Shown here: positions 6,666-18,150 of the stretch, piece after piece | How the letters are laid out: every line of letters starts with the position of its first letter | How positions within the stretch are numbered: the first letter of the stretch is position 1 | Origin: a virus | Reading direction: 5' to 3' (one strand) | Virus genome (UHGV): UHGV-1601204 | Length of the DNA stretch: 19,317 nucleotides | Made by a program: the position numbers and the translations under genes | Notes under the pieces: model-generated | What the model was told of the DNA's origin: nothing | What the model saw: only the letters and a program-made list of their open reading frames with translations | Database searches by the model: none

Positions 6666-8072
6666 ATGGCTGATATATCAACACCCAACCTCGACTATAA
6701 CGATATGCTGGAGGCGTGGGATATTAACGACGCACTGATGGGCGGTACGCTTGAAATGCGCAGGCAGGGGGAAAATTATCTCCCAAAATGGCCTAACGAA
6801 GATGAAGACGCTTATAAAAAACGCCTGTCTGTGGCTACGCTACTTCCTGTGTATGAAGAAAGCATCAAGCAAAATATTGGGCGCATATTTGCAGAGCCGA
6901 CAGTATTGAGTGAGGAAACGCCGGCAAAAATCAGGGAATATGCAGAAAATATCGACATGGAGGGGAGCCGACTGGATGTGTGGGCGCAGCAATTTTTCAG
7001 CCTCGCATTTCAGTATGGTGTGGCACATGCGCTGGTGGACTATCCACGAACGGATATGAAAGAGATTCGGACAAAAGCCGATGAAAACGCGGCCGGTGGT
7101 CGTCCGTACGTTACGATGCTGAATCCACGCCAGGTTATTGGATGGAAATCGAAAGTTGAACAAGGGAAAGTTGTTCTCACTGATTTGCGTATAAAAGAGG
7201 TCATCATTATTGATGGTGATGATTTCGGGCAGAAGAAGGTGGAGCAGATCCGCCATATTATGCCCCGTCGAGTTGAAATTTATCGACGTAGCGAAGGCAC
7301 TAATGGCGAATCTGTCTGGACGCTTCATGAGTCATGGAATACCAGCCGTGATGATATTCCTCTGGTAACACTGTACACGAAGAAAACAGGATTTATGCGT
7401 GGTACACCGCCATTGCTTAATCTTGGCTTGCTGAATATCAAGCACTGGCAAAGCCAGAGCGAGCAGGACAATATTCTTCATGTTGCCCGCGTTCCATTGC
7501 TGGTGGCCTACGGGCTGGACAGGAATGAAGAACTGACGGTTGGTGCATCCACCGCTACGATTTTTGAGGACAGAACAAAAAATGGCCTCGAATATGTTGA
7601 ACATAGTGGCGCAGCGATAGAATCTGGCGAAACATCACTTGAGAAGCTGGAAAATCAGATGCGTCATGCCGGCGCTAAACTTCTGCGTGCTGAAAATACA
7701 TCCACCAAATCTGTTGATCAGACTAATGAAGAGCGAATGCAGGAAAACTCGCCGCTTTATACAATGGCGAACTCCCTCGAAGATGCCCTCGATAATATTC
7801 TCCAGATAATGGCGGAATGGATCGGAGAGAGTTGCGGTGGCAATGTGGATGTGCGCACTGAACTGGATGTATCTGCCCAGGTGTTTGACTCATCCTCCGC
7901 GCTGGCTGTTCAGTCATTGCGTCAGGGCGGTGATATACGTCAGATTGATGCGGTTCGGGTGTTGCAGGCGTTGAAATTTATCGATCAGGATTCCCGTCCA
8001 GAGGAAGTGATCGATGAATTAAAAAATCAGAGTGTAATGCTGATGGAAATCAATGATGCAAACCGTGAATGA
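6666..8072 (+). CDS. Portal protein
   Basis: 468-aa ORF immediately after TerL (stop TAA 6661-6663, ATG 6666), in the canonical portal position. Acidic C-terminus. Assigned by synteny and size plus family recollection; not searched. Confidence 0.75.
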   Translation: MADISTPNLDYNDMLEAWDINDALMGGTLEMRRQGENYLPKWPNEDEDAYKKRLSVATLLPVYEESIKQNIGRIFAEPTVLSEETPAKIREYAENIDMEGSRLDVWAQQFFSLAFQYGVAHALVDYPRTDMKEIRTKADENAAGGRPYVTMLNPRQVIGWKSKVEQGKVVLTDLRIKEVIIIDGDDFGQKKVEQIRHIMPRRVEIYRRSEGTNGESVWTLHESWNTSRDDIPLVTLYTKKTGFMRGTPPLLNLGLLNIKHWQSQSEQDNILHVARVPLLVAYGLDRNEELTVGASTATIFEDRTKNGLEYVEHSGAAIESGETSLEKLENQMRHAGAKLLRAENTSTKSVDQTNEERMQENSPLYTMANSLEDALDNILQIMAEWIGESCGGNVDVRTELDVSAQVFDSSSALAVQSLRQGGDIRQIDAVRVLQALKFIDQDSRPEEVIDELKNQSVMLMEINDANRE

Positions 8073-9168
8073 ACGGCTGCGTGATGAATCAATTGCTCAT
8101 GCAGTCTGGATATCCCGCTATAGCACTGGCGTGGCTGCCAGAATGGTGAAAATACTGAATGACAGCGATGCGGAACTTACTGCTCGCCTGCTGATAGCAC
8201 TGGACAGCCTCGATCCAGGTAGTTTTACCGTTAAGCGCCTGGAGTCACTTCTGGCGAGCGTCAGAGAGGTTAACCGCACTGCTATTAACAGCATGTTTAC
8301 CAGTCTCTCCGGAGAGCTGAACGAGCTGGCAATTTATGAGGCTGGTTATCAGTTAAGTCTGTTTGATTCTATGCTACCTGATTTTGTTGCTGATGTTCAC
8401 CCTCTGGTTGGTATCTCTCCTGATGCACTTTATGCCGCTGCAATGGCGCGACCATTCCAGGGACGACTGCTCAGTGAGTGGGCCTCAGATCTTGAAGCGG
8501 ATCGGCTCAGACGCATAACAAATACAGTGCGTCAGGGTTTTTTGCTGGGGGATACCAATGAGCAGATCGCAAGAAAAATTCGGGGACATGTCAGTAAGGG
8601 ATTTCAGGATGGTGCATTGCAGATGAGCCGGGCTAATGCGGCCAGCATTGCAAAAACAGCGGTTGGACATCTTGCTGCTACTGCCCGTGAGAGTTTTGCC
8701 AGCGCGAATAATGATTTGATTAAGGGTAAGCAATGGTTATCAACGCTTGATAATCGTACTACGCCACAATGTCGAATCAGGGATCGCCTCAAATATACGC
8801 TGAATAATAAACCTGTAGGTCACAGCGTGCCTTATTTGCAGGGGCCGGGAAAAATTCATTTCTGCTGCCGCTCAACGGAAACGTTCATTCTGAAATCAGC
8901 GAAGGAACTGGGTATTGATGTTCGCGATATTTCCCCGGCTGAGCGGGCCAGCATGGATGGCGTGGTGGCCGGAGATACAACCTACAGGGAATGGTTTTTG
9001 CGTCAGCCTTACACCAGACAAAAACAGATTGTGGGGGAAACCCGAGCAAAGCTGATTCGGGATGGTGGTATGTCGCCAGATGAATTTTACACCGATAAAG
9101 GCGAATGGCTGACGCTGAAGCAGCTCCGTGAGCGTGATGCACAGGTATTCAGAAAAGCAGGGATTTAA
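8053..9168 (+). CDS. Head morphogenesis / minor head protein (Mu F / SPP1 gp7-like)
   Basis: 371-aa ORF overlapping the portal end by 20 nt, in the position usually held by the F-like minor head protein. Followed by a clear intrinsic terminator. Confidence 0.6.
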   Translation: MMQTVNERLRDESIAHAVWISRYSTGVAARMVKILNDSDAELTARLLIALDSLDPGSFTVKRLESLLASVREVNRTAINSMFTSLSGELNELAIYEAGYQLSLFDSMLPDFVADVHPLVGISPDALYAAAMARPFQGRLLSEWASDLEADRLRRITNTVRQGFLLGDTNEQIARKIRGHVSKGFQDGALQMSRANAASIAKTAVGHLAATARESFASANNDLIKGKQWLSTLDNRTTPQCRIRDRLKYTLNNKPVGHSVPYLQGPGKIHFCCRSTETFILKSAKELGIDVRDISPAERASMDGVVAGDTTYREWFLRQPYTRQKQIVGETRAKLIRDGGMSPDEFYTDKGEWLTLKQLRERDAQVFRKAGI

Positions 9169-11497: not shown

Positions 11498-11893
11498 ATG
11501 ATCACTTACGTGACCTGTGATGACGTTGATAATGCGTTTGGGAACGCCTGGACGAGTGAGAACGCTAAAAATAAAGCTGTTTTAATGGCTAATGCCTGGC
11601 TTAATGGCTTCAACCTGAAAATTAACCCATCCCGTATTCCGGAAGAGGTAAAACTTGCGGGAGCATATGCAGCCAGAATTGCCTCATTCGGTAAGTTGTT
11701 TCAGCAGAAAAATGATTCTGGCGTTGTTATCAGTAAAGCCGTGTCGGCTGACGGGGTCAGTGTATCGAAATCATTTTCTGAGTTGCCAGCAAACAGCACT
11801 GCATTGCTTGAACCCGATTTACAGCTTGCGATAGCACTGCTGAAACCGTACGGACTTAGTCGCTCACAAGTCAGGGTTGTGAGGGGGGGATAA
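11498..11893 (+). CDS. Putative head-tail connector / head completion protein
   Basis: 131-aa ORF with SD AGGAG 6 nt upstream. First of four tightly packed small genes between the capsid and major tail genes. Exact role not resolved. Confidence 0.5.
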   Translation: MITYVTCDDVDNAFGNAWTSENAKNKAVLMANAWLNGFNLKINPSRIPEEVKLAGAYAARIASFGKLFQQKNDSGVVISKAVSADGVSVSKSFSELPANSTALLEPDLQLAIALLKPYGLSRSQVRVVRGG

Positions 11894-12276
11894 TGGGGCT
11901 TCGTGAAGAGATTCAGTCAGAGGTTGCCGCTGCTTTTGATGAGGATTTAGCGGACGCCGTGAGTGATTTTTCTGGTTCTTACGTTACGCACCGGCACTGG
12001 GATCCTGTGACGGAAACTGGCGGCGAATCCACCGCAATCTATACCGGGCGAGGCGTGTTGACACGTTATAAGCTGGGCAGAATTGATGGGATTAATATTT
12101 TGCATGGTGACCTTAAATTAACCGCTCTGGTATGCGAGGTTACGGATAAACCAGCTGTCGACCATATTATTGAGATTTATGATCCTGTATCAAGGCAGTT
12201 ACAACGATACGAGGTAATTACAGCAAGTGTAGATCCTTCCGCATCAGTTTACTCTATCCAGTTAAGGAGAGCGTAA
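11893..12276 (+). CDS. Putative head-tail joining / neck protein
   Basis: 127-aa ORF. Start overlaps the previous stop (TAATG) and follows a G-rich SD (GAGGGGGGG). Role assigned by position only. Confidence 0.5.
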   Translation: MGLREEIQSEVAAAFDEDLADAVSDFSGSYVTHRHWDPVTETGGESTAIYTGRGVLTRYKLGRIDGINILHGDLKLTALVCEVTDKPAVDHIIEIYDPVSRQLQRYEVITASVDPSASVYSIQLRRA

Positions 12277-13072: not shown

Positions 13073-14035
13073 GTGAGTTCAGGTGCAAAGGTTATCTCGG
13101 CATTTATCCGGGAGACAGTTGCAGGCACTACGCCAGCAAGTGGTGACTGGAGTTTATTAAAACGCACAAGCTGGGGAGTAAAACCCACCCAGAATAAAGG
13201 CGAAAATAATGAGATTGGTGGCTCCCGGATGGCTCAGGGGGCGACGCCTGGCACTGTGGATGTCGGCGGTGATGTTGGTACCAAATTTCGCTGGGGTCAA
13301 CATGATGATTTTCTTGCATCCTGTTTCGGCGCGGAATGGTCAGGCGATTCTCTGACAATGGGGAATGAGCGAATAACATTTTCTCTGGCGACCTATGCGT
13401 CCGATGTCGGAATTGCCTCTGTCGTCAGAGGAGCGCAGGTTGGCTCATGGAAAATGCAGATCCCTAACGACGGCGATATTACAGCGACCGTAACCTTTGC
13501 CGGGCTGGGCTGGGAATCAAAGGCCGATGATACGAATTTTATCAAAGGCGAACCTGTGGATAGTGCAGGAAAGTTACGCTATTCGTTTAAGGCGGTTTCA
13601 GCAGTAAGCCTGAATGGTGTTGCCGGAGGTAACGGTTTTTGTATCGACAGTTTTGATATTCAGTTCGATAACAAACTCCAGACACAGCGTTGTATCGGGA
13701 CTGGCTCGCCTTATGCAGGAGCAAATATTCCGACTACTTTTACACCGTCCGGTACGGTGACGCTTTCATGGTCTAAAGCCGCGTGGGAAATCTGGAGTAA
13801 AACACTGACTGGAGAAACAGTTCCGTTCAGCTTCACGCTTTCGAATGGAGAGGGGGCATACACTTTCAGTTTCCCGAAGGTTCAGGTGTCAGGTGAATGG
13901 CCTGATGGGGGTAATACTGACATTATCCAGGTTCAATTGAGCATTACCGCAGCAGATGAAGCACCTACGATAACCAGAAAAAAATGCTCCCCGACTGCCG
14001 TGATCGCAAAAGCCAGTGCTGATGCGATTAGTTGA
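13073..14035 (+). CDS. Putative major tail (tube) protein
   Basis: 320-aa ORF with GTG start 13073 and SD GGAGG (13063-13067). Lies just upstream of the chaperone and tape measure genes. Ser/Thr/Gly-rich, beta-rich-looking sequence. Not lambda V-like. Confidence 0.6.
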   Translation: MSSGAKVISAFIRETVAGTTPASGDWSLLKRTSWGVKPTQNKGENNEIGGSRMAQGATPGTVDVGGDVGTKFRWGQHDDFLASCFGAEWSGDSLTMGNERITFSLATYASDVGIASVVRGAQVGSWKMQIPNDGDITATVTFAGLGWESKADDTNFIKGEPVDSAGKLRYSFKAVSAVSLNGVAGGNGFCIDSFDIQFDNKLQTQRCIGTGSPYAGANIPTTFTPSGTVTLSWSKAAWEIWSKTLTGETVPFSFTLSNGEGAYTFSFPKVQVSGEWPDGGNTDIIQVQLSITAADEAPTITRKKCSPTAVIAKASADAIS

Positions 14036-14083: not shown

Positions 14084-14545
14084 ATGAGGTTATGGATGTT
14101 TATTCTTAATCAGAAAATTATCATCGGTGGAGAACGCTGGTTTACGCCAATGAAGGACTTAAAACCTATAGACGGGTTAAAACTGTTGGTGGCAAGCAGC
14201 GATAACGATCAGTATCGCTCCCGTAATGCATTAATCCGTCGTCACATTGAGAAAATGGATGCCAGTTTGCACGTCGGAACGAAGGAGTTTGATATTTCAA
14301 AGGTTTCCGAGGTAGATTCTGTTGATGATTTACTCATTGATAATGCTGCTCGTTATCTGCTGAAAGACTGGAAAGGGGTTGGTGAACTGGTTAATGGTGC
14401 TGAGGTTGCACTGGAATATACGCCAGAACGAGGGATCGCGCTGCTTAAGCAGAATCCAGAGTTGTACTGGCAGATCCTTGCAGAAGCAGCCAGCATCGCC
14501 CAGGGTAAAGAGCAGCAGAAGCAGGATACGATAAAAAAGCCATAG
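14084..14545 (+). CDS. Tail assembly chaperone (lambda gpG-like), zero-frame product
   Basis: 153-aa ORF between the major tail and tape measure genes. Ends ...DTIKKP with the slippery heptamer A_AAA_AAG in frame just before the stop. Alternative starts at 14093 and 14150. Confidence 0.7.
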   Translation: MRLWMFILNQKIIIGGERWFTPMKDLKPIDGLKLLVASSDNDQYRSRNALIRRHIEKMDASLHVGTKEFDISKVSEVDSVDDLLIDNAARYLLKDWKGVGELVNGAEVALEYTPERGIALLKQNPELYWQILAEAASIAQGKEQQKQDTIKKP

Positions 14546-14853
14546 CCGCCCAGCGGTGGTTATCGGAGTTCGGGGGAGAAAGGGGGGAAAAGGCAAGATG
14601 GAAGCGAGAAAAACTCAGGTTGCCACCGATACCGGAACCAGAAATAGACCCGGTGCTTAAGGAATTGTTGTACGCCTATTCGGTAATATCCCGTGCCCGA
14701 CGTTATGCTGGAATGACCGGGGTGCCTTTGCCTTTATCTCTGACAGAGATAAATGAATATTTAGCCACTCATCCGGTATTGATTGAGCGCGATGAGTTTG
14801 AAGCAGTGATCTTTGCACTGGATGACCAGTATTTTCAGGAGCAGTGTGTGTAG
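14084..14853 (+). CDS. Tail assembly chaperone frameshift fusion (gpGT-like), made by -1 frameshifting at 14533-14539
   Basis: The -1 frame from 14539 reads AIAAQRWLSEFGGERGEKARWKREKLRLPPIPEPE... and continues into the track ORF 14620..14853 with no stop (my manual translation). Predicted fusion about 256 aa. The G/GT frameshift is a conserved feature just upstream of tape measure genes in tailed phages. Confidence 0.6.
14533..14539 (+). promoter_or_regulatory. Programmed -1 ribosomal frameshift slippery site A_AAA_AAG (G/GT-type)
   Basis: Heptamer A AAA AAG at 14533-14539 in the zero frame of the chaperone gene (codons AAA 14534-36, AAG 14537-39), two codons before its TAG. The -1 frame is open from here through 14853. 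Confidence 0.6.
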
Positions 14854-14976
14854 TTGTTAATTACGTACACTCTGTTACAGAGATGTGATGGTGTCTTTAA
14901 TTAAATCGATGATGCTCCTGGAGAAAAGCATTGCGTGGCCTCGTAATCGCTATATCTACTATTATGTCGCCTGAAA

Positions 14977-14997
14977 CCCACTTCGGTGGGCTTTTTG
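14977..14997 (+). terminator. Rho-independent terminator in the gap between the chaperone and tape measure genes
   Basis: CCCAC-TTCG-GTGGG hairpin (14977-14990, UUCG tetraloop), then CTTTTTGTTG. Confidence 0.6.
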
Positions 14998-15016
14998 TTG
15001 TCTGGAGTTTTAATAA

Positions 15017-15784
15017 ATGGCAGAGCAAACCTCGCGTCTCGCAATAATTATTGATAGCACTGGAGCAAAAAATAATGCTGACAATCTGACCTCCTCATTA
15101 GTCAAAATGACGCAGGCCGGGGAAACTGCTGCAAATAGCGCAGGGAAAGTGACTAAGGCAACAGAAGATGAGAAGAACGCGCTCGCAAAATTAAAAGCAG
15201 CTATTGATCCAGTTGGTGCCGCAATTGATACTGTCGGTCGACGCTATTCTGAATTAAAGAAATTTTTCGATAAAGGGCTTATTGATAAAGAAGAATATGA
15301 ATTTCTTGTCCGTAAACTTAATGAAACCACAGAGGAATTGAGCGGGGTTGCGCAAGCGCAGAGAGAAGCCGAGAAGGCCGGAAAACTTGCTGCCGCCCAG
15401 CAGGAAGCGCAGACTCAGGCCTTTCAAAGAATGCTGGACAAGATCGACCCTCTGGCTGCGGCGCTAAGAAATCTTGAACAACAGCAGGATGAACTTAATG
15501 CTGCGTTTGCATCCGGGAAAATAAATGGTTCTCAGTTTGAGAATTATAGCCGAAAAATACAGGAAACACGGCGAGAGCTTACCGGAGAGGCTCAGGCAGA
15601 GCGAGAAGCAGCAAAAGCGCATGATGAACAGGTTGCTGCTTTGCAACGTCTGATTGCTCAACTTGACCCTGTCGGAACTGCTTTTAATCGTCTGGTAGAA
15701 CAACAGAAACAGCTCAATGAAGCAAAACCGGAATGTCGGCAAAACAAACGGCTTTTGCTATGCGCATGTTGCCTGCACAAATGA
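15017..15784 (+). CDS. H: Tail tape measure protein, N-terminal segment (frame-disrupted from the remainder)
   Basis: 255-aa ORF starting [14 protein letters not shown], resembling the start of lambda H (MAEPVGDLVVDLS...) from memory. Contains three roughly 75-80-aa coiled-coil repeats (IDPVGAAI..., IDPLAAAL..., LDPVGTAF...). Ends in a 17-codon out-of-frame tail ([16 protein letters not shown]) overlapping the next ORF. Confidence 0.6.
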
Positions 15785-18150
15785 CGGATATTGTTGTTGG
15801 GTTGTCCACTGGTCAGTCGCCTTTTATGGTGTTAATGCAGCAGGGCGGCCAGCTAAAAGATATGTTCGGTGGGATTGGCCCGGCGATCAAAGGTGTTGGT
15901 TCTTATGTGCTGGGATTAATTAATCCTTTTACCCTGGCCGCAGCAGCCGTTGGCGTCTTAGGGCTGGCTTACTATAAAGGCTCTCAGGAGCAGGACGAAT
16001 TTAATAAGTCTCTTATTCTTACCGGAAATCAGTTGGGGACAACCAGCGGGCAATTGGCCGATATAGTTCAACGTGCCGGGAATGCGGCTGATTCGACAAC
16101 TGGCGCTGCGGCGGCAGTATTAAACCAGCTTGTGCGTTCGGGAAAGGTAGCGAGCAGTTCGCTGGAGCAAGTGACGACAGCGATAGTAAAAACGAGCGAA
16201 GTAACAGGAATATCAACCGAACAACTGGTTAATGACTTCAATGAAATTGCAAAGGATCCTGTCAGTGCCATATCAAAACTTAATGATCAGTACCATTTTC
16301 TGACAATTGCGACTTATAACCAGATTAAGGCGCTACAGGATGAAGGGAACCAGCAGGAGGCCGCCCGCATTGCGACAGAAGCATACTCATCCTCAATGAT
16401 CCAGCGCACCAACCAGATTAAAGAAAATCTTGGTTATCTTGAGACTGCATGGAAAGCTGTCGCAGACTCCGCAAAATGGGCATGGGATTCCATGCTGGAT
16501 ATTGGCCGTGAGGCCTCCCTTGATCAAAAAATCTCAGATGTTCTCCGTCAAATTGATGAAATAGAAAAAAATACCCGACCCGGAGTTTTCGGGTTAGGTG
16601 GCATTGGAGATGGCGGAGCTCAAAATAAAAGGCTGGCACGATTAAAGCAGCAATTGGGCGTACTTCAAGCAGAAAAAATTGCTCAGGACGTACTAAATTC
16701 ATCAATAAACGATTACAACAAGCGACAACAGGAAGGAATTGAACTCAGACAGAGAGCAGATGCCTTTTCAAAACAATATCAGACCCGGGAGCAGCAGAGA
16801 GCTAGTGAACTTGCAAAACTGGAAAAACTAAAGAGTCAGTATTCAAAGGAAGAATATAATAATCTTATCGCTCAAATAAATGAGCGTTATAAAGATCCAA
16901 AGCAACCAAAGGCGAAAGGTTATTCGGATGATGCTGCCCAACGAATGATTGATCATCTGAATCAACAGAATGCGTTACTAAGTTCACAAACTGAATTAAC
17001 CGTTAAATTAAGTTCCTCTGAACAGGAACTGGTTAAGTGGCGTCAGCAGATTGCCGACCTGGAGTCACGACCGTCATCGAAATTAACCAAGGATCAGAAA
17101 TCGCTTCTCTTACACCGGGAAGAAATAACCGCGTTGATGGAGAAAAATGTTGCGATTGAAAAAAATAACAGGCTAATCAAGGAATCCGCCGAAATAGCTG
17201 CATGGCGTGATTCATTGCAGGCTTCGATTGATAATCGTCAACAGGGGTATGATATTCAGATTGCTGGTTATGGGGTTGGCGATAAAAATCAGCAACGCCA
17301 GCAGGAATTACTGCGGATTGAACGTGAATATAACAATCAGCGTCTGCAACTTGAACGTGACTATGCAGATAAATCCCGTGGGATGTCAAATCATGTTTTT
17401 CAGGAGAAAATGCAGGCTCTGAATGATGCTCTGGAACGAGAAAAAGAAATTGTCAGACAGAAAAACGAGCAGCTCGATATTCAGGCAGGAGACTGGGTTA
17501 GTGGTGCCTCCCAGGGATTCAATAACTGGCTGGATGACACTAAGGATATCAGTGAGCAGATAAAATCAACCACGACTCAGATGTTTGATGGAATGACCGA
17601 TGCGCTGGGTGATTTTGTCACGACAGGCAAAGCAAATTTTCGTTCTTTCGCTACTTCCGTGATTTCGGATCTTAGTCGAATAGCATTAAAGGCTTCAATT
17701 ACTGGGATTTTCTACAGCATTAGTAACAGTTCTTCTGGGGGGATTTTAGGAACTATCGGGAGTGCTATTAGTAAATTTATTCCGAATGCAAAGGGCGGTG
17801 TTTATGAGTCTCCGTCATTGAACACGTATTCGAACGGTATTTATGATTCCCCGCAATTTTTTGCTTTTGCAAGAGGGGCTGGTGTTTTTGGTGAGGCTGG
17901 TCCGGAAGCCATTATGCCATTAACACGAACTTCCGATGGTTCTCTTGGTGTCAGAGCTGTTAATAGTAAAAGTGGTAATGGAGGCGGAGATATTACCTAT
18001 GCCCCTGTATACCAAATCACTATTCAAAATGACGGCCAGAATGGAGAGATTGGCCCTCAGGCAATAAAAGCACTTATGGGGATGGTTGATCAGCGGGTGC
18101 AGGGCAATCTGTTAAATATGCGACGTGATGGGGGAATGTTAAGTGGCTAA
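15733..18150 (+). CDS. H: Tail tape measure protein, main body (lambda gpH-like)
   Basis: 805-aa ORF. The N-terminal motif [41 protein letters not shown] matches the lambda H motif [40 protein letters not shown] from memory. Coiled-coil middle. C-terminus ...[10 protein letters not shown] resembles the lambda H end. It is in the -1 frame relative to the 15017 ORF. Confidence 0.85.

What the first reader, a model, noticed from the sequence alone, without database searches (positions are those of the whole stretch)
14521..14853. Canonical -1 frameshift site (A_AAA_AAG) linking the tail chaperone to a downstream -1 frame ORF
The chaperone ORF ends with A AAA AAG in the zero frame, the same heptamer used by E. 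coli dnaX, two codons before its stop. The -1 frame is open from 14539 to the TAG at 14851-14853. The track shows the tail of that frame as a separate 77-aa TTG-start ORF, but it is more likely the T-like extension of a GT fusion of about 256 aa. A weak SD-like AGGA lies about 7 nt upstream of the heptamer. I do not see a strong downstream stimulatory stem-loop.
Basis: partly seen in the sequence, partly recalled or inferred. Interest (0 to 1): 0.5.

Follow-up and report, generated by a model that had tools for sequence, protein, structure and literature searches.

The report
Phage tail chaperone G/GT frameshift site
This is an ordinary but unannotated example of the ribosomal "slip" that long-tailed phages use to make a short and a long version of their tail assembly chaperone from one gene, here in the Rac-type prophage gene that E. 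coli databases call ydaY.

Summary
A_AAA_AAG (14533-14539) lies in the zero frame of the gene between the tail tube gene and the tape measure gene, one sense codon before its stop. The -1 frame then runs 104 codons to the TAG at 14851-14853 and has no start codon for its first 27 codons.

The motif alone is not rare: there are 30 in-frame X_XXY_YYZ heptamers in this window. The comparative evidence decides the case. All 187 related loci (44-100% protein identity, nine named genera or more) carry a canonical heptamer at the same codon: 185 A_AAA_AAG and 2 G_GGA_AAG, the lambda heptamer. Its synonymous sites never vary, while neighbouring ones do. The zero-frame stop moves (0 to 105 nt downstream), yet the -1 ORF stays open. 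The 27 start-less codons vary mainly at their third positions.

The virtual fusion (252 aa from ATG 14096) matches PHROG 313, "tail assembly chaperone", in one collinear stretch. A distant relative, Acinetobacter phage TRS1, already has the join annotated.

An 11-bp hairpin abuts the heptamer, but only in the E. coli clade. GenBank and RefSeq annotate "YdaY" plus "hypothetical protein". Verdict: a new member of a well-known kind, of low interest.

The parts
14096..14545 (+). G-type tail assembly chaperone gene (databases call it ydaY). Zero-frame product is 149 aa, 16.9 kDa. An alternative upstream ATG lies at 14084.
   Evidence: phrog_313 'Tail assembly chaperone', E 3e-46. Homologues begin at the Met encoded at 14096. 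Mass.
14533..14539 (+). Slippery heptamer A_AAA_AAG in the zero frame: the -1 shift site.
   Evidence: Conserved in phase in 187 of 187 related loci (185 A_AAA_AAG, 2 G_GGA_AAG), with synonymous sites that never vary.
14539..14853 (+). T extension: the -1 frame ORF, 104 codons plus TAG, with no start codon before TTG 14620. It is expressed only as the C-terminal part of GT, join(14096..14539,14539..14853), 252 aa, 28.8 kDa.
   Evidence: phrog_1189, E 2e-36. Third-position variation in the first 27 codons. The fusion matches phrog_313 over positions 20-246 of 258 in one stretch.
14543..14545 (+). Zero-frame stop (TAG) of G, one sense codon after the heptamer.
   Evidence: Its position varies among relatives: 0, 3, 21, 75 or 105 nt after the heptamer.
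14506..14508 (+). Last stop (TAA) in the -1 frame upstream of the junction. It sets the 5' limit of the region where the frame can change.
   Evidence: In relatives this stop lies 4-41 codons upstream.
14523..14526 (+). Weak Shine-Dalgarno-like AGGA, 6 nt 5' of the heptamer. A possible minor stimulator, unproven.
   Evidence: Present in most relatives but absent in the Providencia-type loci and L011, and it overlaps conserved Gln-Glu/Asp codons.
14540..14566 (+). 11-bp hairpin (4-nt loop, one bulge) abutting the heptamer. A possible stimulator specific to the E. coli clade.
   Evidence: -13.1 kcal/mol, z -3.8. Only -2.4 to -6.4 kcal/mol in other clades, with no covariation.
13073..14035 (+). 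Major tail tube gene immediately upstream (synteny context).
   Evidence: PF18906 Phage_tube_2, E 2e-32. RefSeq calls it 'phage tail tube protein'.
15017..18150 (+). Tape measure gene immediately downstream (synteny context). In this window it is split by a 100-nt deletion.
   Evidence: PF06791, PF09718 and PF24622. phrog_24. Deletion relative to ON470614.

Best explanation
This is the programmed -1 ribosomal frameshift cassette of a siphophage tail assembly chaperone, the functional equivalent of lambda G/GT.

**Proposed mechanism**
- Most ribosomes translating the G gene (14096-14545) read AAA AAG CCA and stop at TAG, giving G (149 aa).
- A minority slip back one base when tRNA-Lys occupies AAA (P site) and AAG (A site) of A_AAA_AAG. 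Both tRNAs re-pair with AAA.
- Decoding then resumes at GCC 14539 and runs to TAG 14851-14853. The product is GT (252 aa), which carries a 104-residue T domain.
- By analogy with lambda, the G part of both proteins coats the tape measure protein. The rare T domain recruits the tube protein so that the tail polymerises to the right length. Neither protein ends up in the virion.

**What is shown here:** the signal, the frames, the gene order, and selection on the heptamer and on the start-less -1 codons.

**What is inferred:** the slip itself, its frequency (probably a few percent) and the protein contacts.
For: **Anatomy**
- An in-phase A_AAA_AAG lies one codon before the stop. The -1 ORF has 104 codons and no start for 27 of them.

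**Identity and gene order**
- G matches phrog_313 'Tail assembly chaperone' (E 3e-46).
- Its neighbours are the tail tube gene (PF18906) and the tape measure gene (PF06791, PF09718).
- The virtual fusion matches phrog_313 in one collinear stretch, residues 5-249 on profile positions 20-246 of 258. It scores 174 bits against 159 for G alone. The match to phrog_8233 improves from E 0.0097 to 1e-7.

**Comparative evidence**
- 187 of 187 loci with a G homologue keep a canonical heptamer at the same codon. Two lineages switched A_AAA_AAG to G_GGA_AAG, together with the wobble base of the preceding Val codon (GTA to GTG).
- In 40 unique contexts the three heptamer codons are always GTA/ATA/GTG, AAA/GGA and AAG. 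Neighbouring third positions have entropy 0.45-1.9 bits.
- The zero-frame stop moves between 0 and 105 nt after the heptamer, but the -1 ORF stays at 100-119 codons in 183 of 187 loci.
- Summed entropy for -1 frame codons 1-27 is 8.5, 8.9 and 24.4 for positions 1, 2 and 3. The rest of T shows the same pattern: 40.5, 26.6 and 91.9.
- No ATG, GTG or TTG lies in the -1 ORF upstream of the junction in any locus.
- The tightest -1 frame and zero-frame stops across the family leave only about 12 nt before the junction codon for the shift.

**Precedent**
- In Acinetobacter phage vB_AbaS_TRS1 the T part is 31-36% identical. Its G/GT pair is deposited as a joined CDS over G_GGA_AAG.
- Lambda has the same layout: G_GGA_AAG 15 nt before the G stop and a 144-codon T.
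- The mechanism and roles in lambda are summarised in PMC5009743.
Against: - There is no direct evidence for the fusion protein in this family. I found no paper linking ydaY to frameshifting.
- G and T show no detectable sequence or profile similarity to lambda G and T. The functional roles therefore rest on analogy.
- The AlphaFold model of G was too poor (pLDDT 50) to test the chaperone fold.
- No stimulatory RNA structure is conserved across the family.
- Two distant relatives lack a perfect heptamer at the site: Erwinia phage Gungnir39 has C_GCA_AAG followed by TAA, and Pseudomonas phage Aurca01 has G_GAA_AAG.
- The tape measure gene of this window is broken. In this particular copy the cassette may sit in a tail-defective prophage.
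Confidence: 0.9

Rival explanations
1. T is an independent small gene that starts at TTG 14620, TTG 14668 or a nearby codon, as current annotations have it. The heptamer would then be coincidental.
For: GenBank and RefSeq records annotate a separate 'hypothetical protein' of 61-66 aa. phrog_1189 (86 positions, unknown function) collects such stand-alone calls. The motif is common in the window.
Against: - The 27 codons before TTG 14620 are conserved as protein, with third-position variation.
- The first start codon in the -1 ORF moves between 7 and 58 codons after the junction, and two loci have none.
- The heptamer's synonymous sites never vary, and it was replaced by another canonical heptamer rather than lost.
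- No usable Shine-Dalgarno sequence precedes TTG 14620: the AGG abuts the TTG (read directly from the sequence).
Confidence: 0.04
2. The fusion arises by transcriptional slippage: RNA polymerase adds an A in the A6 run, rather than the ribosome slipping.
For: The site contains six consecutive A. Homopolymer runs can cause polymerase slippage (reviewed in PMC5009743).
Against: - Efficient slippage normally needs longer runs, eight or nine or more (my own knowledge, not tested here).
- Relatives with G_GGA_AAG have only three A and three G yet keep the same two-frame layout.
- The phase of the motif relative to the zero frame is strictly conserved. That matters for tRNA re-pairing but not for the polymerase.
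Confidence: 0.03
3. T is made by termination-reinitiation: ribosomes stop at the G stop codon and restart nearby in the -1 frame.
For: In 161 of 187 loci the G stop lies only 3 nt after the heptamer, so stop and -1 ORF overlap closely.
Against: - There is no start codon near the stop in any locus.
- In 25 loci the stop lies 21, 75 or 105 nt downstream. Restarting there would skip conserved T residues.
- This model does not explain why the heptamer never varies.
Confidence: 0.02

Closest known systems
Bacteriophage lambda G / GT tail assembly chaperone, a -1 frameshift at G_GGA_AAG
   Same: - The gene order is the same: tube, then G, then T in the -1 frame, then tape measure.
- A canonical heptamer lies a few codons before the G stop, and the T ORF has no functional start of its own.
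- Two relatives of the window's gene (L010 Raoultella, L012 Pantoea) use lambda's exact heptamer.
- The tape measure and tip genes downstream are lambda-like.
   Different: - There is no detectable sequence or profile similarity in G or T.
- The heptamer here is A_AAA_AAG, 3 nt before the stop, against 15 nt in lambda.
- T is shorter: 104 codons against 144.
- A 164-nt spacer separates T from the tape measure gene. It holds a small ORF and a terminator-like hairpin. In lambda T and H overlap.
Acinetobacter phage vB_AbaS_TRS1, TRS1_18 / TRS1_19 (annotated joined tail assembly chaperone)
   Same: - It is a true but distant homologue. G is 20% identical over the alignment. T is 31% identical in the alignment and 36% in the tblastn segment.
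- The layout is the same, and the frameshift is deposited as a joined CDS.
   Different: - It uses G_GGA_AAG, with the zero-frame stop 78 nt after the heptamer.
- The host and phage lineage differ.
E. coli dnaX (tau/gamma), a -1 frameshift at A_AAA_AAG
   Same: The heptamer is identical and so is the expected tRNA-Lys slip (the comparison with dnaX is from my own knowledge).
   Different: - dnaX has a strong Shine-Dalgarno-like element about 10 nt upstream and a stem-loop about 6 nt downstream, and it shifts at roughly 50% (my own knowledge).
- Here there is only a 4-nt AGGA at 6 nt, and a hairpin with a spacer of 0-2 nt. Neither is conserved across the family.
- In dnaX the shifted frame stops almost at once. 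Here it adds a 104-residue domain.

Membership tests
Tailed-phage G/GT tail assembly chaperone frameshift class (Xu, Hendrix and Duda 2004, as described in PMC5009743) | The gene pair lies between the major tail (tube) gene and the tape measure gene. | tested here: met
   Tube gene 13073-14035 (PF18906). Tape measure gene 15017-18150 (PF06791, PF09718).
Tailed-phage G/GT tail assembly chaperone frameshift class (Xu, Hendrix and Duda 2004, as described in PMC5009743) | The downstream ORF is in the -1 frame, overlaps the end of G and has no start of its own. | tested here: met
   -1 ORF 14539-14853. The first start codon is 27 codons in. No locus has a start upstream of the junction.
Tailed-phage G/GT tail assembly chaperone frameshift class (Xu, Hendrix and Duda 2004, as described in PMC5009743) | A slippery X_XXY_YYZ heptamer lies in phase with G, within the overlap. 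| tested here: met
   A_AAA_AAG at 14533-14539. It is the only canonical heptamer in the permitted stretch 14509-14542.
Tailed-phage G/GT tail assembly chaperone frameshift class (Xu, Hendrix and Duda 2004, as described in PMC5009743) | [quoted passage not shown] | tested here: met
   187 of 187 loci. Synonymous sites never vary. A_AAA_AAG is swapped for G_GGA_AAG in two lineages.
Tailed-phage G/GT tail assembly chaperone frameshift class (Xu, Hendrix and Duda 2004, as described in PMC5009743) | G and GT are both made, in a fixed ratio. Both are needed for tail assembly and both are absent from virions. | not testable with these tools
   This needs a western blot, mass spectrometry or genetics. 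No publication on this family was found.
PHROG 313 (tail assembly chaperone) | A significant profile match. | tested here: met
   G alone: E 3e-46. Virtual GT: E 6e-51 in one stretch over profile positions 20-246 of 258.
Lambda gpG and gpT sequence families | Detectable sequence or profile homology to lambda G and T. | tested here: not met
   BLASTP gave no alignment. hhalign probability was 0.1% for both.
Pfam PF23812 Phage_TAC_18 (for the T part) | A score above the gathering threshold of 27 bits. | tested here: inconclusive
   20.3 bits, E 6e-4, below threshold. 9 of 20 family members match at E below 0.01.
Tail assembly chaperone fold | The predicted structure of G matches a solved chaperone structure. 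| tested here: inconclusive
   The AlphaFold2 model had mean pLDDT 50.4, too low for a fold search. There was no sequence hit in the PDB.
dnaX-type stimulated frameshift site | A Shine-Dalgarno-like element about 10 nt upstream and a stable stem-loop about 6 nt downstream, both conserved. | tested here: not met
   AGGA lies at 6 nt and is not universal. The hairpin abuts the heptamer and occurs only in the E. coli clade. The consensus fold is -1.7 kcal/mol with no compensatory pairs.

The most novel reading that the evidence does not exclude
The family may offer a natural series of tRNA-Lys slip sites at one homologous codon:
- A_AAA_AAG in most members;
- G_GGA_AAG in Raoultella, Pantoea and Acinetobacter phage TRS1;
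- G_GAA_AAG in Pseudomonas phage Aurca01;
- C_GCA_AAG directly followed by a stop in Erwinia phage Gungnir39.

The E. coli/Rac clade has in addition an 11-bp hairpin that starts 0-2 nt after the heptamer. If that hairpin stimulates slippage despite the unusually short spacer, and if the degenerate sites still shift through a single A-site slip, the family would show how the G:GT ratio is retuned during evolution.
Probability: 0.25. Interest if true: 0.35.

Novelty: new member of a known kind. Interest (0 to 1): 0.2.

Why it matters
- **Annotation.** The cassette is present in 1,073 of 5,426 complete E. coli genomes. RefSeq labels it 'protein YdaY', a 119-aa call from an internal start, plus a separate 'hypothetical protein'. 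The right description is a tail assembly chaperone G and a joined GT product with ribosomal slippage.
- **E. coli K-12.** It explains K-12 ydaY as the 3' remnant of a Rac prophage tail chaperone gene. That remnant still carries an intact slip site and T ORF (L009).
- **Biology.** It adds one more well-supported case to a rule already known for long-tailed phages. It opens no new question.

Tried and rejected
- **Structure of G.** AlphaFold2 on an 11-sequence alignment gave pLDDT 50.4, so I ran no fold search. A second homologue search with a wider profile listed only close relatives among its top 120, so I could not build a deeper alignment.
- **Solved structures.** A sequence search of the PDB with the G profile gave no hit at E up to 1.
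- **NCBIfam.** No family matched G, T or GT.
- **Pfam (local copy).** Nothing for G. The precomputed domain PF27119 appears in the database tables but is not in the local library.
- **Homology to lambda G and T.** None by BLASTP or hhalign.
- **Conserved stimulatory RNA structure.** RNAalifold on 17 diverse sequences gave -1.7 kcal/mol and no compensatory pairs. Folding 101 nt and 201 nt around the site was no better than shuffles.
- **Rfam.** No family reached its gathering score in the window.
- **Literature.** I found no paper linking ydaY to frameshifting or to tail chaperones.
- **Motif enrichment.** I considered it as evidence and rejected it. The motif is as frequent as chance predicts.

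Full report
**Where the window comes from.** The region is 98.5-100% identical to ten deposited phage records, including Escherichia phage vB_EcoS-666R9 (ON470614). The 770 bases of the finding occur in 1,073 of 5,426 complete E. coli genomes, nearly always on the chromosome. It is the late, structural arm of a Rac-type lambdoid prophage. The order is head genes, tail tube (13073-14035, PF18906 Phage_tube_2), the gene in question, tape measure (15017-18150; PF06791, PF24622, PF09718), then lambda-like M, L, K and I.

**The observation.**
- The zero frame ends ...Q D T I K K P stop, with AT[A AAA AAG] CCA TAG. The heptamer is at 14533-14539 and the stop at 14543-14545.
- The -1 frame is closed by TAA 14506-14508. 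It is then open through RAAEAGYDKK and, from GCC 14539, for 104 codons to TAG 14851-14853.
- The first ATG, GTG or TTG in that ORF is TTG 14620. That is why a mechanical ORF list shows a 77-aa ORF.
- Homologues begin at the Met encoded at 14096, which is preceded by GAGG. G is therefore most likely 149 aa (16.9 kDa) and GT 252 aa (28.8 kDa), or 153 and 256 aa from ATG 14084.
- AGGA lies at 14523-14526, 6 nt before the heptamer.
- One statement needs correcting. An 11-bp hairpin, 14540-14566, -13.1 kcal/mol, follows the heptamer directly, and none of 200 shuffles folds as well.

**Is it more than chance?** The motif is not. AAAAAAG occurs 8 times in the window against 6.6 expected. The 21 gene-like plus-strand ORFs contain 30 in-frame X_XXY_YYZ heptamers. 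Of those, 28 lead to -1 ORFs of 0-33 codons. One, at 11884, leads into the next gene, which has its own ATG. Only 14533 leads to a long ORF with no start. The case therefore rests on context and conservation.

**Identity of the two parts.**
- G matches phrog_313 'Tail assembly chaperone' (E 3e-46). The -1 product matches phrog_1189, of unknown function, which collects stand-alone calls of this ORF (E 2e-36).
- The -1 product also matches the C-terminal part of phrog_313 and Pfam Phage_TAC_18 weakly.
- When the two are joined at the heptamer, the 252-aa protein aligns to phrog_313 in one collinear stretch. Residues 5-249 fall on profile positions 20-246 of 258, at E 6e-51 and 174 bits against 159 for G alone. 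The match to a second chaperone family, phrog_8233, improves from E 0.0097 to 1e-7.
- That profile is 258 positions long, and the window's fusion aligns to it collinearly. I take this to mean that some members were deposited as fusions. One deposited fusion in this family is Acinetobacter phage vB_AbaS_TRS1, whose TRS1_19 is a joined CDS over G_GGA_AAG. Its T is 31-36% identical to the window's.

**Comparative test.** I collected 187 loci that encode a G homologue at 44-100% identity. They come from Escherichia, Shigella, Citrobacter, Raoultella, Siccibacter, Pantoea and Scandinavium genomes and from IMG/VR contigs retrieved with the G alignment, a Klebsiella protein and a Providencia protein.
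- Every locus has a canonical heptamer in phase at the homologous codon: 185 A_AAA_AAG and 2 G_GGA_AAG.
- Among 40 unique 57-nt contexts, the codon before the heptamer is GTA or ATA, or GTG exactly where the heptamer is G_GGA_AAG. The next codon is AAA or GGA, and the last is AAG in 40 of 40.
- Neighbouring codons vary freely at their third positions, with entropy 0.45-1.9 bits. A Lys ten codons upstream is AAA 19 times and AAG 16 times.
- The change to G_GGA_AAG is a concerted three-base change that keeps the X_XXY rule. That is the signature of selection on slipperiness.
- The zero-frame stop lies 0, 3, 21, 75 or 105 nt after the heptamer in different lineages. The -1 ORF is 100-119 codons in 183 of 187 loci. 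Of the four exceptions, L167 has only 3,071 bases of locus held, so its ORF may be cut by the locus end. The other three diverge or shift frame within T.
- No locus has a start codon in the -1 ORF upstream of the junction. The first one lies 7-58 codons downstream at varying places.
- The 27 codons between the junction and TTG 14620 evolve as coding sequence in the -1 frame. Summed column entropy is 8.5, 8.9 and 24.4 for codon positions 1, 2 and 3, like the rest of T at 40.5, 26.6 and 91.9. Trp7, Trp21, Gln5 and Lys18 are invariant among the 112 unique T sequences of that analysis.
- In the most restrictive loci the -1 frame stop is 4 codons upstream of the junction and the zero-frame stop is directly after the heptamer. 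The frame change must therefore happen on or next to the heptamer.
It is not met in any locus.

**Mechanism.**
- The best-supported reading is tandem -1 slippage of the P-site and A-site tRNA-Lys from AAA AAG to A AAA AA. It produces ...DTIKK-AIAAQRW....
- The one element present in every relative examined, including degenerate ones, is A_AAG. Pseudomonas phage Aurca01 has G_GAA_AAG, and Erwinia phage Gungnir39 has C_GCA_AAG followed by TAA. This fits the known poor pairing of E. coli tRNA-Lys with AAG (my own knowledge).
- Stimulators look weak. The AGGA is short, sits 6 nt away rather than the roughly 10 nt of dnaX (my own knowledge), overlaps conserved Gln-Glu/Asp codons, and is missing in Providencia-type loci and L011.
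- The hairpin is strong only in the E. coli clade (-8.7 to -14.2 kcal/mol), where T reads AIAAQRW. Elsewhere it is -2.4 to -6.4 kcal/mol. The consensus fold of 17 diverse sequences is -1.7 kcal/mol with no compensatory pairs.
- The hairpin starts 0-2 nt after the heptamer. Its lower half would be inside the mRNA channel during the slip, leaving about 6 GC-rich pairs at the entrance (inference). It may tune the efficiency in this clade, but the family does not need it.
- I expect a low shift frequency, a few percent as in lambda. This is an inference.
- The protein roles are taken from lambda (PMC5009743): G coats the tape measure protein, and T recruits the tube protein. They are not shown here. 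G and T have no detectable similarity to lambda G and T by BLASTP or hhalign.

**Rival explanations.**
- *Independent initiation of T.* It does not fit the conserved start-less codons, the wandering first start codon or the invariant heptamer.
- *Transcriptional slippage.* It does not fit the G_GGA_AAG variants or the strict phase conservation.
- *Termination-reinitiation.* It does not fit the mobile stop codon or the lack of a restart codon.
- *Sequencing error or decay.* It is excluded by conservation across 187 loci.

**Caveat for this copy.** The tape measure gene is broken by a 100-nt deletion. This prophage may not build tails, even though the frameshift cassette itself is intact.

**Comparison with what is known, and novelty.**
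- The G/GT frameshift is widely conserved among long-tailed dsDNA phages (PMC5009743; PMC10885494). This is the same device, with dnaX's heptamer in place of lambda's, in a protein family unrelated in sequence to lambda G and T.
- For this clade it is not annotated. GenBank phage records give 'putative protein YdaY' plus 'hypothetical protein'. RefSeq gives 'protein YdaY' of 119 aa from an internal start, copied from the truncated K-12 gene, plus 'hypothetical protein'.
- I found no paper connecting ydaY with frameshifting.
- It is a new member of a known kind. The interest lies mainly in correcting annotation.

Noticed in passing
window 15017-18150 (junction near 15713-15727): The tape measure gene is split into two ORFs, 15017-15784 and 15733-18150. 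Compared with the single 3,234-nt CDS of ON470614, the window lacks 100 nt. The two aligned blocks overlap by 15 nt, which suggests a deletion between short direct repeats. This prophage copy may be tail-defective, or the assembly may have an error.
   Followed up: partly
window 14885-14999: The 164-nt spacer between the T stop and the tape measure start holds a 29-aa ORF (GTG 14885-14974, MMVSLIKSMMLLEKSIAWPRNRYIYYYVA). A terminator-like hairpin CCCACTTCGGTGGG plus a T-run follows at 14977-14999. In lambda, T and H overlap instead. Function unknown.
   Followed up: partly
L192 1493-1852 (E. coli K-12 lineage, strain EMG2); L009: K-12 ydaY is a 5'-truncated remnant of this chaperone gene, lying next to ynaK. 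It still has the intact A_AAA_AAG and a full 104-codon T ORF. RefSeq applies the truncated 119-aa 'protein YdaY' model to full-length genes in other strains, so their start is called too far downstream.
   Followed up: partly
L190 about 1485-1510 (Erwinia phage Gungnir39); L188 about 1490-1505 (Pseudomonas phage Aurca01): Two more distant relatives have no perfect heptamer at the homologous codon, yet the -1 frame T is conserved. Gungnir39 has GTC GCA AAG TAA (C_GCA_AAG followed by a stop). Aurca01 has CTG GAA AAG (G_GAA_AAG). This suggests a single tRNA-Lys slip on A_AAG, or sequence errors.
   Followed up: partly
P0001 (E. coli, 240 aa); P0025 (Providencia stuartii, 204 aa): Two database proteins are natural in-frame G-T fusions. 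P0001 joins ...QILAEA to GYDKKAIAAQRW.... That fits a 35-nt deletion between the 10-nt repeat GCAGAAGCAG (window 14480-14489 and 14515-14524). P0025 reads ...ETIKKVIEAQKW..., exactly the predicted frameshift product, as one extra A would give. Near-identical IMG/VR contigs keep the normal two-frame layout. Whether these are real hard-wired mutants or homopolymer errors was not checked on DNA.
   Followed up: no
L073-L079 (seven IMG/VR loci), locus position about 2950: In these loci the G stop TAG has become TTG, so G runs 35 codons further in the zero frame and gains a basic tail. The heptamer and T are unchanged. Sequence after the heptamer in the zero frame is evidently not constrained. Proteins P0007 and P0010, both 183 aa, have a similar zero-frame extension.
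   Followed up: yes
window 11884-11890: G_GGG_GGA lies in frame at the very end of ORF 11498-11893, and the -1 frame continues for 128 codons. This is simply the next gene (ATG 11893-12276), which overlaps the stop. It is an ordinary stop/start overlap, not a second frameshift candidate.
   Followed up: yes
window 8053-9168: The identical gene in ON470614 is annotated 'NAD+--asparagine ADP-ribosyltransferase'. It sits in the head-morphogenesis block, next to a DUF4055 protein that is probably the portal. I did not examine it.
   Followed up: no
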